Shown piece after piece: positions 16,564 to 17,449 of a stretch of DNA of 38,029 nt. This stretch comes from a virus. The position numbers were made by a program, and so were the translations under genes. Numbering within the stretch: position 1 is the first letter of the stretch; the number at the start of each line of letters is the position of its first letter. Under the pieces are notes generated by a model that had not been told where the DNA came from, searched no databases, and saw nothing but the letters and a program-made list of their open reading frames with translations. The stretch is taken from the UHGV virus genome UHGV-0335973. One strand, given 5' to 3'.

Positions 16564-16893
16564 ATGTTAGATTTGAGTAAAGTGGCCCCGCCCACTGAAG
16601 AGATTACAAAATCCAAGGTGATGCAACAGTTTTATCATCGTGATATGCTTGGTCGCTTTATCAAGAATCGTGATGTTGTTGCTTGGTCTATTGGTAATCA
16701 GGGATATCTGTTGAAGGTTCTTCAGGTTACAGGTTCAACTGCTAAGCGGGTTAAGGTGTATGACCCTGAAATGGGGCGTTCTAAGTCAGTAGACCCACAG
16801 AACTGCATCGTAATTACCCAGCAGGTAATGGATAATATTGCACGTAATGTTGCTAACTCGGTTGAACTTGATGGAGAAAACCCAAATGCATAA
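16564..16893 (+). CDS. hypothetical protein (109 aa)
   Basis: ORF with GGAGAGAG SD. Confidence 0.5.
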   Translation: MLDLSKVAPPTEEITKSKVMQQFYHRDMLGRFIKNRDVVAWSIGNQGYLLKVLQVTGSTAKRVKVYDPEMGRSKSVDPQNCIVITQQVMDNIARNVANSVELDGENPNA

Positions 16894-17449
16894 GAATGTC
16901 TTTGATTTACCTGAGATTGGTCGTGACAGCTATAGTATGTTAGACCGGTCCGACCTATCAATCTCTCGCCTTGAAACGATGCAAGGTATGATTAGTGGAA
17001 ACAGCCTAGAACACATCCTGAGCTGCTTACAAGCTAACATGGAACTCTTGCATATCAAAGCTAAAAACTACCACTGGAACGTCTCTGGTGCAGGATTTCA
17101 GGGTGTTCATGGTATGTTTGATGAGCTGGAAGATTACGCACGACAGGTAGGAGATCGTATTGCTGAACGTATGCGTTACCACTGTGTTAAAGTGGATGCT
17201 ACAGCAGCTAACTACCTCTCTCATGCTTGGTTCTCAGAGGGTAATGCTGATCTAGACATGGACGGTATGCTCTCTGATATGTGCATGACCTTGATGTGTA
17301 TTATTGAGAAGATGGATGAGTTTGATGGTGATTTAGCCACCTACCCTGTCGATCAGAGTATGCTTCAAGAAATTAATGAAGGTCTTGGCAAGTATTGCTA
17401 CTTCGTCAAGAGCAACATGTCCCATTCAAGTGGTGATGTGTCTTACTAA
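16886..17449 (+). CDS. Dps-like ferritin-fold protein
   Basis: KNYHWNVSGAGFQGVHGMFDELEDYARQVGDRIAERM resembles the Dps motif (HWNV.G..F..LH..FEE); internal ATG 16886 with GGAGA SD preferred over track start 16838. Confidence 0.5.
   Translation: MHKNVFDLPEIGRDSYSMLDRSDLSISRLETMQGMISGNSLEHILSCLQANMELLHIKAKNYHWNVSGAGFQGVHGMFDELEDYARQVGDRIAERMRYHCVKVDATAANYLSHAWFSEGNADLDMDGMLSDMCMTLMCIIEKMDEFDGDLATYPVDQSMLQEINEGLGKYCYFVKSNMSHSSGDVSY

What the first reader, a model, noticed from the sequence alone, without database searches (positions are those of the whole stretch)
16886..17449. Dps-like ferritin-fold protein in a phage early region
The sequence around KNYHWNVSGAGFQGVHGMFDELEDYARQVGDRIAERM fits the Dps ferroxidase and DNA-protection family. 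A phage-encoded Dps is unusual and could protect replicating DNA from oxidative damage or sequester iron during infection.
Basis: partly seen in the sequence, partly recalled or inferred. Interest (0 to 1): 0.5.

Follow-up and report, generated by a model that had tools for sequence, protein, structure and literature searches.

The report
Known Dps mini-ferritin gene of phiEco32-like phage
The gene is a real Dps-family iron-oxidising "mini-ferritin" with every catalytic residue intact, but it is the long-annotated gp67 of phiEco32-like E. coli phages, sits in the middle (replication) gene block rather than the early one, and its role in infection has never been tested.

Summary
Window 16886..17449 (+) is a 187-aa ORF containing the quoted peptide. 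It is a Dps-family protein: it passes the Pfam Ferritin-like threshold, all solved-structure relatives are Dps proteins, and the AlphaFold model superposes on Dps at 1.2-1.7 A. The five ferroxidase ligands (H63, H75, D79, D90, E94) and W64 align with E. coli Dps H51/H63/D67/D78/E82/W52.

It is not new. The window is a Kuravirus about 95% identical to phiEco32. The protein is 100% identical to phiEco32 gp67, annotated "member of the Dps family" and discussed in the SU10 and Privateer papers. "Early region" is wrong: it is a middle gene. It is the second cistron of a two-gene unit, running from the phage-sigma promoter AAATGTATA (16516) through gp68 and gp67 to a conserved hairpin (17456-17484).

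The gp68-Dps pair is conserved across distant prolate podophages. The protein is strongly acidic (pI 4.7) and its N-terminal tail has net charge -3, so the "DNA-binding" label is unsupported.

Most likely it is a dodecameric Fe(II)/H2O2 detoxifier acting during phage DNA replication; this is inferred, not shown.

The parts
16516..16524 (+). AAATGTATA, a match to the phiEco32 gp36-sigma middle/late promoter consensus tAATGTAtA, in the 72-bp gap upstream of the gp68 homologue.
   Evidence: Pattern search. By itself the 1-mismatch motif is no more frequent in the window than chance. The surrounding 91 bp differ at only two positions from phiEco32, where a gp36-dependent promoter was mapped experimentally upstream of gene 68 (PMC8948821). 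The element CTCTCAAATGTATATA is conserved in KBNP1711 although the downstream flank diverges.
16564..16893 (+). gp68 homologue, 109 aa, function unknown (phrog_10984). It is the first cistron, and its stop overlaps the Dps start codon (ATGCATAA).
   Evidence: Homologues (31-37% identity) sit immediately upstream of the Dps gene in Proteus phage P59 and Aeromonas phage LAh_9 (blastp). The same arrangement holds by record annotation in Cronobacter phage GAP52 and E. coli phage KBNP1711. In Salmonella phage 7-11 the two genes are 1.3 kb apart. The AF2 model is low-confidence (pLDDT 53) and suggests a small beta-barrel; only weak SH3/KOW/Tudor-like fold matches were found.
16886..17449 (+). Dps-family gene, 187 aa plus stop; 100% identical to phiEco32 gp67 (ABY52868.1).
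16886..17017 (+). N-terminal extension, residues 1-44. It is acidic (net charge -3), disordered over residues 1-23, and has a low-confidence helix at 24-37. Conserved motifs are MHxNxFDLP and S-x-x-R-L-E/D-x-M (R28 invariant).
   Evidence: It evolves faster than the core: 12 synonymous versus 16 amino-acid-changing codons against KBNP1711.
17072..17167 (+). Ferroxidase-centre segment. Codons are H63 (17072-17074), W64, H75 (17108-17110), D79 (17120-17122), D90 (17153-17155) and E94 (17165-17167).
   Evidence: These align column-for-column with E. coli Dps H51, W52, H63, D67, D78 and E82. H/H/D/E are conserved in 148 of 149 aligned Dps-family sequences and are invariant in the 14 close homologues.
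17456..17484 (+). Terminator-like hairpin (11-bp stem, 7-nt loop) followed by a weak T-tract, 7 nt after the Dps stop codon.
   Evidence: It is identical in phiEco32. The stems are identical in KBNP1711, with one loop substitution, while the flanks diverge. The fold z-score is only -1.55, so terminator function is inferred.

Best explanation
The ORF encodes a genuine but divergent member of the Dps (dodecameric mini-ferritin) family. It is the orthologue of phiEco32 gp67 in a Kuravirus-type E. coli podophage.

Shown here: it has the Dps four-helix bundle with the short BC helix, and a complete inter-subunit ferroxidase centre (H63, H75, D79 from one subunit; D90, E94 from the two-fold partner) next to the conserved Trp (W64). 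It is transcribed in the middle phase as the second cistron of a compact unit: a phage-sigma promoter, gp68, gp67, then a hairpin. This unit is embedded among dCTP deaminase, thioredoxin, ThyX, primase/helicase and DNA polymerase genes.

Inferred: it assembles into a 12-mer cage that oxidises Fe(II) with H2O2 and stores Fe(III). This would lower Fenton chemistry while the phage genome is being replicated, or buffer iron and redox state for the neighbouring nucleotide-metabolism enzymes.

The protein is strongly acidic (pI 4.7, net charge -15) and its N-terminal tail is acidic rather than Lys-rich. Protection is therefore more likely chemical (iron and peroxide removal) than by E. coli-type coating of DNA. 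The conserved upstream partner gp68 probably works with it; its role is unknown.
For: Family and fold:
- Pfam Ferritin-like above the gathering score, and PHROG 3636 at E 2.6e-55.
- PDB sequence hits are exclusively Dps proteins.
- The AF2 model has core pLDDT 85-97, with helices at 41-65, 72-98, 107-112 (the BC helix), 125-150 and 154-176.
- All top 50 Foldseek PDB hits are Dps-family or Dps-like, e.g. Dlp-2 1jig at rmsd 1.2 A (TM 0.89) and Dlp-1 1ji5 at TM 0.92.

Catalytic site:
- The ligands align exactly with E. coli Dps H51/H63/D67/D78/E82 plus W52.
- They are invariant in homologues down to 48% identity.

Expression and selection:
- Purifying selection on the core, 48 synonymous versus 17 non-synonymous codon differences.
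- The SU10 orthologue was detected by mass spectrometry.

Timing and operon:
- The promoter region is near-identical to the mapped phiEco32 P68 region.
- The downstream hairpin is conserved.

Conservation:
- The gene is present in essentially every phiEco32-like record: 98 full-length matches against 99 records matching the region.
- It is also present in the distant prolate podophages 7-11, GAP52, Privateer-like and LAh phages, always in the nucleotide-metabolism block.
Against: No biochemical data exist for any member of this clade in the literature I could search. Dodecamer assembly, iron oxidation and any effect on infection are all inferred.

The protein falls far below the NCBIfam Dps equivalog cutoff (34.5 versus 114 bits) and is about 20% identical to host Dps. 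Functional equivalence to E. coli Dps cannot be assumed.

The canonical D-x-T-x-D segment at the start of helix D is replaced by an invariant P-V-D-Q, so iron-entry pore chemistry may differ.

The conserved 44-residue N-terminal extension and the obligate partner gp68 are not explained by a simple detoxifier model.

Detection of the Privateer homologue in doubly CsCl-purified virions hints at another location.
Confidence: 0.75

Rival explanations
1. DNA-binding, nucleoid-type Dps, as the GenBank product name 'DNA-binding protein' implies. The dodecamer would coat or condense phage or host DNA directly, protecting replicating phage DNA or compacting the host nucleoid.
For: The family name and annotation. 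Distant phage homologues carry short basic N-terminal tails: P59 +3, 7-11 +2. A predicted N-terminal helix (residues 24-37) recalls, from my own knowledge, the N-terminal helix needed for DNA binding in Lactococcus lactis Dps. The gene lies among replication genes.
Against: The tail upstream of helix A has net charge -3, against +2 in E. coli Dps. The whole protein has net charge -15 and pI 4.7. There is no Lys/Arg-rich C-terminal tail (…SNMSHSSGDVSY). Many Dps proteins with such properties do not bind DNA (established knowledge, e.g. Listeria innocua Dps). Only about 20% of aligned Dps relatives have tails of +2 or more.
Confidence: 0.15
2. Particle-associated Dps. The cage would be packaged in, or attached to, the prolate capsid, analogous to ferritin-like cargo inside HK97-fold encapsulins. 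It might be targeted by its conserved terminal peptides or by gp68, and delivered with or protecting the packaged genome.
For: The Privateer Dps homologue is one of about ten proteins detected by mass spectrometry in virions purified by CsCl step plus equilibrium gradients (PMC7881722). SU10 gp67 and gp68 were detected in a phage preparation. Its promoter uses the same phage sigma as the late genes. The BFVD fold search finds Dps domains inside long proteins named 'Prohead protease' in uncultured phages.
Against: The SU10 preparation was only PEG-precipitated and also contained DNA polymerase, thioredoxin, PhoH and sigma factor. In the cryo-EM and mass-spectrometry study of purified SU10, the only head-internal proteins named are gp20-24, and no 'gp67', 'Dps' or 'DNA-binding' term occurs in the text or supplement. 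A 9-nm dodecamer cannot pass through a portal. Iron-loaded cages are dense and could co-band with phage in CsCl (my inference). The gene is not in the structural module.
Confidence: 0.08
3. A degenerate or non-catalytic ferritin-like protein, or a 24-mer ferritin or bacterioferritin rather than a Dps.
For: Pfam matches only residues 55-108 of the generic Ferritin-like model. The protein falls below the NCBIfam Dps equivalog cutoffs.
Against: All inter-subunit ferroxidase ligands and the Trp are invariant. The profile and fold matches cover the whole bundle and hit only Dps proteins. A BC helix is present and there is no C-terminal fifth helix. Purifying selection acts on the core.
Confidence: 0.02

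Closest known systems
phiEco32 gp67 (ABY52868.1) and its orthologues in Kuravirus and Gordonclarkvirinae phages (SU10 CDS67, NJ01, KBNP1711 and others); PHROG 3636
   Same: 100% amino-acid identity to phiEco32 gp67. Same position between gp68 and gp66/thioredoxin/ThyX, with the same promoter and hairpin. Already annotated 'member of the Dps family'.
   Different: Nothing of substance; the window is a sister isolate about 95% identical in DNA. Many GenBank records mislabel the orthologue 'integrase' or 'hypothetical protein'.
Bacterial Dps mini-ferritins with solved structures: Bacillus anthracis Dlp-1/Dlp-2, B. subtilis MrgA, S. aureus Dps, M. smegmatis Dps1/Dps2, Listeria innocua Dps, E. coli Dps
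   Same: The four-helix bundle plus BC helix; rmsd 1.2-1.7 A over about 140 residues for the closest relatives (Bacillus, S. aureus and Listeria Dps). Identical ferroxidase ligand pattern H-x11-H-x3-D ... D-x3-E and the adjacent Trp.
   Different: Only 20-27% identity. A 44-residue acidic N-terminal extension replaces a short or Lys-rich tail. P-V-D-Q replaces the usual D-x-T-x-D at the start of helix D. It is much more acidic overall (net -15 against -4 for E. coli Dps). It is phage-encoded, expressed from a phage-sigma promoter, and paired with gp68.
Dps homologues of other prolate (C3) podophages: Salmonella 7-11, Cronobacter GAP52, Proteus Privateer/P59, Aeromonas LAh phages
   Same: 31-42% identity over the bundle. 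Same genomic neighbourhood (dCTP deaminase, thioredoxin, ThyX, PhoH) and usually the same upstream gp68-like gene.
   Different: They are shorter (146-156 aa) with basic or neutral N-termini. They often lie next to anaerobic ribonucleotide reductase (NrdD, NrdG, ATP-cone) genes, which were not seen next to the Dps gene or in the stretches examined here (phiEco32 genes 53-78).
Dps genes reported in other phages: Lactobacillus plantarum myophages, 'Gratiaviridae' and other gut phages, Synechococcus S-SRM01, Bacillus phage G
   Same: Phage-borne Dps-fold proteins proposed to limit oxidative damage during infection (PMC6669764; PMC8008677).
   Different: Independent, very distant lineages (13-29% identity) in different hosts and gene contexts. 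None has been characterised biochemically as far as I could find.

Membership tests
Dps (DNA protection during starvation) mini-ferritin family | Significant sequence-profile match to the ferritin-like/Dps family. | tested here: met
   Pfam PF00210 scores 31.1 bits against a gathering score of 24.5. PDB phmmer and hmmsearch hits are all Dps proteins, best E 5.4e-15. There are 3418 relatives at E<=1e-3 in the representative library.
Dps (DNA protection during starvation) mini-ferritin family | Four-helix bundle with a short helix in the long B-C loop and no C-terminal fifth (E) helix. | tested here: met
   AF2 helices at 41-65, 72-98, 107-112, 125-150 and 154-176, with core pLDDT 85-97. All top 50 Foldseek PDB hits are Dps-family or Dps-like, TM up to 0.92 and rmsd 1.2-1.7 A for the best.
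Dps (DNA protection during starvation) mini-ferritin family | Inter-subunit ferroxidase centre ligands: two His and one Asp/Glu on helices A/B, then Asp and Glu on helix B (E. coli H51, H63, D67, D78, E82). | tested here: met
   H63, H75, D79, D90 and E94 align to exactly those columns. H/H/D/E are conserved in 148 of 149 sequences and invariant in the 14 close homologues.
Dps (DNA protection during starvation) mini-ferritin family | Conserved Trp next to the first ferroxidase His (E. coli W52). | tested here: met
   W64 aligns to W52; Trp occupies this column in 146 of 149 sequences.
Dps (DNA protection during starvation) mini-ferritin family | Assembly into a hollow dodecamer with 23 symmetry. 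| not testable with these tools
   Only a monomer could be modelled. Assembly is inferred from the need for a two-fold partner to complete the ferroxidase site.
Dps (DNA protection during starvation) mini-ferritin family | Acidic ferritin-like three-fold pore at the C-D loop and the start of helix D. | tested here: inconclusive
   Acidic residues are present (D144, E145, D147, D149, D156), but the usual D-x-T-x-D is replaced by an invariant P-V-D-Q. Pore geometry was not modelled.
DNA-binding Dps subtype (E. coli Dps-like; the basis of the 'DNA-binding protein' annotation) | A flexible Lys/Arg-rich N- or C-terminal tail, or a positively charged surface. | tested here: not met
   The N-terminal 44 residues have net charge -3 (E. 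coli Dps +2). The C-terminus is SSGDVSY. The whole protein has pI 4.7 and net charge -15.
E. coli-type Dps orthologue (NCBIfam NF006975 equivalog) | Score above the curated equivalog cutoff. | tested here: not met
   34.5 bits against a cutoff of 114, and about 20% identity to E. coli Dps. It is not a recent capture of the host gene.
24-mer ferritin / bacterioferritin | An intrasubunit di-iron centre and a fifth C-terminal helix. | tested here: not met
   No ferritin or bacterioferritin appears among the sequence or top fold matches, apart from Dps entries whose depositor names say 'ferritin' or 'putative bacterioferritin' and one engineered Dps-bacterioferritin chimera (5xgo). No fifth helix is predicted.
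Capsid or encapsulin-type ferritin-like cargo | Stoichiometric presence inside purified shells, directed by a terminal targeting peptide. | not testable with these tools
   The only evidence is literature mass spectrometry, positive for Privateer. Dps is not listed among SU10 structural or ejection proteins. Conserved terminal motifs exist, but no shared targeting peptide was found in other window ORFs.

The most novel reading that the evidence does not exclude
gp68 and gp67 might form a phage-specific two-component module. The small beta-barrel protein gp68, and/or the conserved acidic N-terminal extension, would tether a Dps iron cage to a particular target: the replisome, the procapsid or virion (as hinted by the Privateer virion proteome and by prohead-protease-Dps fusions in uncultured phages), or an Fe-dependent enzyme such as NrdD/NrdG in relatives. 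That would give the cage a role beyond generic peroxide and iron detoxification.
Probability: 0.12. Interest if true: 0.6.

Novelty: already known. Interest (0 to 1): 0.2.

Why it matters
If the inferred activity is real, prolate E. coli podophages, several of which are being considered for therapy, carry their own iron and peroxide buffer. They switch it on with the replication genes, which implies that Fenton damage or iron availability limits phage DNA synthesis. That is a modest but testable point about phage-host redox physiology.

There are two practical points. The widespread 'DNA-binding protein' label is not supported by the sequence. The 'integrase' label given to this gene in many GenBank records is wrong, and it could cause strictly lytic therapeutic candidates to be misjudged as temperate.

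Tried and rejected
- **phiEco32 genome paper.** I tried to read Savalia 2008 for its virion proteome. It is not held under either identifier.
- **gp68 function.** Nothing useful came from Pfam or NCBIfam (no hit) or from a PDB profile search (only a spurious designed-propeller hit). The AF2 model was low-confidence (pLDDT 53). Foldseek gave only weak small-beta-barrel matches with E>=0.01. These are treated as a hint, not a result.
- **N-terminal extension as a shared targeting peptide.** I searched every ORF of the window for similarity to residues 1-44 and for the FDLP motif. Nothing significant turned up.
- **Recent capture of host dps.** Rejected: about 20% identity, well below the equivalog cutoff, and the nearest solved relatives are from Gram-positive bacteria.
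- **Ferritin or bacterioferritin, and a catalytically dead Dps-like scaffold.** Both rejected on fold and ligand evidence.
- **The sigma-70 promoter scan** around the gene gave no more sites than shuffled sequence.
- **P0032**, a 1156-aa 'hit' with 20 matched stretches, is a tandem-repeat artefact.
- **Literature on phage Dps.** A search for a biochemically characterised phage Dps found none.

Full report
**1. The observation**

Window 16886..17449 (+) is an intact ORF of 187 codons plus stop. The mechanical ORF list starts it at a TTG at 16838. The ATG at 16886 is the likely start: it overlaps the stop codon of the upstream ORF (ATGCATAA) and coincides with the annotated start of the identical phiEco32 gene. 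The quoted peptide is residues 60-96, nt 17063-17173.

**2. What it is**

Sequence evidence places the protein in the Dps family:
- Pfam gives only PF00210 (Ferritin-like), at 31.1 bits against a gathering score of 24.5.
- PHROGs places it in phrog_3636, 'DNA binding protein', at E 2.6e-55.
- In a search of all PDB chains, the 36 hits at E<0.01 are all Dps-family or Dps-like proteins. The best are M. smegmatis Dps2, B. subtilis MrgA and B. anthracis Dlp-2, at E about 3e-9.
- A profile of 14 clade members raises this to 5.4e-15 and hits 55 distinct sequences, all Dps or Dps-like.

Structural evidence agrees. An AlphaFold2 model has mean pLDDT 79.8, with 85-97 over the bundle. It shows four long helices (41-65, 72-98, 125-150, 154-176) and a short helix (107-112) in the B-C loop. 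That short helix, together with the absence of a fifth C-terminal helix, is the Dps signature. All top 50 Foldseek hits in the PDB are Dps-family or Dps-like, with rmsd 1.2-1.7 A over about 140 residues for the closest ones and target-normalised TM up to 0.92.

**3.

I took the E. coli K-12 Dps sequence from the RefSeq record. I aligned it with the query and 147 Dps-family representatives. Query H63, W64, H75, D79, D90 and E94 fall in the same columns as E. coli H51, W52, H63, D67, D78 and E82. By established knowledge of Dps structures, these are the inter-subunit ferroxidase ligands and the adjacent radical-trapping Trp.

The two His, the Asp and the Glu are present in 148 of 149 sequences. 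All six positions are invariant in the 14 close homologues, which go down to 48% identity. The ligands are present, so the refutation criterion is not met.

The core is under purifying selection. Against KBNP1711 it shows 78 identical codons, 48 synonymous-only differences and 17 amino-acid changes.

**4. Where the window comes from, and prior knowledge**

The window is a phiEco32-like E. coli podophage (Kuravirus, Gordonclarkvirinae). It is about 95% identical to phiEco32 over 25 kb and 96.7% identical to SkaterBoy_Bas90 around the gene. The protein is 100% identical to phiEco32 gp67 (ABY52868.1), whose GenBank entry reads 'DNA-binding protein; member of the Dps family'.

The published record already covers this gene:
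- The SU10 paper lists CDS67 (Dps domain) among the middle genes shared by all five C3 phages then sequenced, and detected it by mass spectrometry (PMC4281155).
- The Privateer paper notes Dps homologues in Kuravirus phages and found its own in purified virions (PMC7881722).
- Other phage Dps genes have been reported (PMC8008677; PMC6669764).

In the phage collection, 137 of 50,697 records carry a match at E<=1e-5. Of these, 98 are full-length Kuravirus-type copies, against 99 records that match the surrounding DNA. The gene is therefore essentially universal in this group. The finding is already known at the level at which it was stated.

**5. Anatomy and timing**

The gene is not in an early region. 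It lies in the block that is middle-class in phiEco32: primase/helicase, DNA polymerase pieces, dCTP deaminase, thioredoxin, ThyX, ligase-like protein and PhoH.

The 72-bp gap upstream of the gp68 homologue contains AAATGTATA at 16516-16524, which matches the gp36-sigma promoter consensus tAATGTAtA. As a bare motif this is not above chance. However, the region differs at only two positions from phiEco32, where a gp36-dependent promoter was mapped experimentally upstream of gene 68 (PMC8948821). The element also survives in KBNP1711 while the flank downstream of it diverges.

Seven nucleotides after the Dps stop codon there is an 11-bp-stem hairpin (17456-17484) followed by a weak T-tract. It is identical in phiEco32 and differs by a single loop base in KBNP1711.

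The unit thus appears to be a self-contained bicistron: promoter, gp68, gp67, hairpin. The promoter rests on published mapping in the near-identical phiEco32 region. Terminator function is inferred.

**6. The partner gene**

gp68 (16564..16893, 109 aa, phrog_10984) is highly conserved. Homologues at 31-37% identity sit directly upstream of the Dps gene in Proteus phage P59 and Aeromonas phage LAh_9. The same arrangement holds by record annotation in Cronobacter phage GAP52 and E. coli phage KBNP1711. In Salmonella phage 7-11 the two genes are 1.3 kb apart.

Gene order kept at such distances argues for functional coupling. The function of gp68 is unknown. There is no Pfam, NCBIfam or PDB sequence match. 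The AF2 model is of low confidence (pLDDT 53) and shows a five-stranded small beta-barrel between helices. Only weak SH3/KOW/Tudor-like fold matches were found, with E>=0.01.

**7. How it probably works**

Shown: a complete Dps catalytic site in a Dps fold; conservation of the gene; co-transcription context with replication and nucleotide-metabolism genes; and protein expression of the SU10 orthologue.

Inferred: assembly into a dodecamer, since the ferroxidase site needs a two-fold partner; oxidation of Fe(II), preferentially with H2O2; and storage of Fe(III) in the cavity. This would suppress hydroxyl-radical formation while phage DNA is replicated, or buffer iron and redox state alongside the phage thioredoxin.

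Direct DNA coating of the E. coli type is unlikely:
- The 44 residues before helix A carry net charge -3, against +2 in E. coli Dps.
- The C-terminus is SSGDVSY.
- The whole protein has pI 4.7 and net charge -15.

The N-terminal extension has conserved motifs (MHxNxFDLP, and S-x-x-R-L-E/D-x-M with R28 invariant). These are also visible in distant cluster representatives. It evolves faster than the core. Its role is unexplained. The distant homologues in 7-11 and P59 have short basic tails instead.

**8. Rival readings**

(a) A true DNA-binding Dps. The annotation says so and an N-terminal helix is predicted, but the charge argues against it.

(b) A particle-associated cage.
- In favour: Privateer virions purified by two CsCl gradients contained the Dps homologue among about ten proteins, and a fold search of viral models found Dps domains within proteins named 'Prohead protease'.
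- Against: the SU10 proteome came from a PEG-only preparation full of non-structural proteins. In the later cryo-EM and mass-spectrometry study of purified SU10, the only head-internal proteins named are gp20-24, and no 'gp67', 'Dps' or 'DNA-binding' term occurs in the text or supplement. Dense iron-loaded cages could simply co-band with phage in CsCl.

(c) A degenerate ferritin-like protein or a 24-mer ferritin. This is rejected by the ligand, fold and selection evidence.

**9. Relation to known families**

It is a member of the Dps family: fold, profile, ligands and Trp were tested and met, while oligomeric state was not testable. It is not an orthologue of E. coli Dps, scoring 34.5 against a cutoff of 114 bits in NCBIfam NF006975, with about 20% identity. 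It forms a small phage clade. Only 7 representative clusters at 50% identity have E<1e-30, followed by a continuous tail of 3418 Dps relatives.

**10. Verdict**

The 'early region' and 'unusual/new' parts are wrong or overstated.
- the operon anatomy;
- the conserved gp68-Dps pairing across distant prolate podophages;
- evidence that the 'DNA-binding' label is unsupported;
- evidence that the 'integrase' label used in many records is an error.

Interest is low (0.2). Novelty: already known.

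Noticed in passing
window 16886-17449; GenBank records IME267, DE5, 172-1, IMEP8, XT73, PE006 and others: The orthologue of this Dps gene is annotated 'integrase' in many deposited Kuravirus-like genomes (for example P0004, 'integrase [Escherichia phage IME267]', 188 aa and 82% identical). 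It has a ferritin fold and no integrase features. The label is a propagated error that could make lytic therapy candidates look temperate.
   Followed up: partly
window 15876-16073, 16073-16282, 16282-16491 (+): Three tandem paralogous small genes (65, 69 and 69 aa; phiEco32 gp71, gp70 and gp69) all match phrog_4939 (unknown function) at E about 1e-27. They lie between dCTP deaminase and the gp68-Dps unit.
   Followed up: no
BFVD entries A0A6J7XDU5 (333 aa), A0A6J7WPK9 (763 aa), A0A6J7WIS1 (432 aa); also A0A6J7WVS4, A0A6J5N5R9 and A0A6J5RFH1 (498-679 aa): Uncultured Caudovirales proteins named 'Prohead protease' or 'Dps' contain a Dps-fold domain inside much longer chains. This suggests Dps domains fused to capsid-maturation proteins, reminiscent of encapsulin ferritin cargo.
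   Followed up: no
L007 (Cronobacter phage GAP52) 1453-3402; L004 (Proteus phage P59) 2923-3694; L005 (Aeromonas phage LAh_9) 1-3701: In distant prolate podophages the Dps gene directly abuts anaerobic ribonucleotide reductase genes (NrdD, an ATP-cone fragment, NrdG). No such gene lies next to the Dps gene in the window or among phiEco32 genes 53-78. This is a possible functional link between the iron cage and oxygen-sensitive or Fe-S enzymes.
   Followed up: partly
window 17510-17689 (+): A 59-aa strongly hydrophobic ORF (phrog_9296, unknown function; phiEco32 gp66) lies between the Dps terminator-like hairpin and the thioredoxin gene (17698-17973).
   Followed up: no
window 27837-27936, both strands: A cluster of four matches to the phage-sigma promoter consensus TAATGTATA lies within 100 bp, two exact and two with one mismatch. 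They are on opposite strands, probably at the divergent middle/late promoter region. Another exact copy is at 20642-20650 (+).
   Followed up: no
protein P0032 (representative library): A 1156-aa metagenomic 'protein' made of about 20 tandem copies of a 57-58-residue unit scored E 1.9e-24 against the Dps clade profile. It looks like a repeat or assembly artefact rather than a Dps relative.
   Followed up: partly
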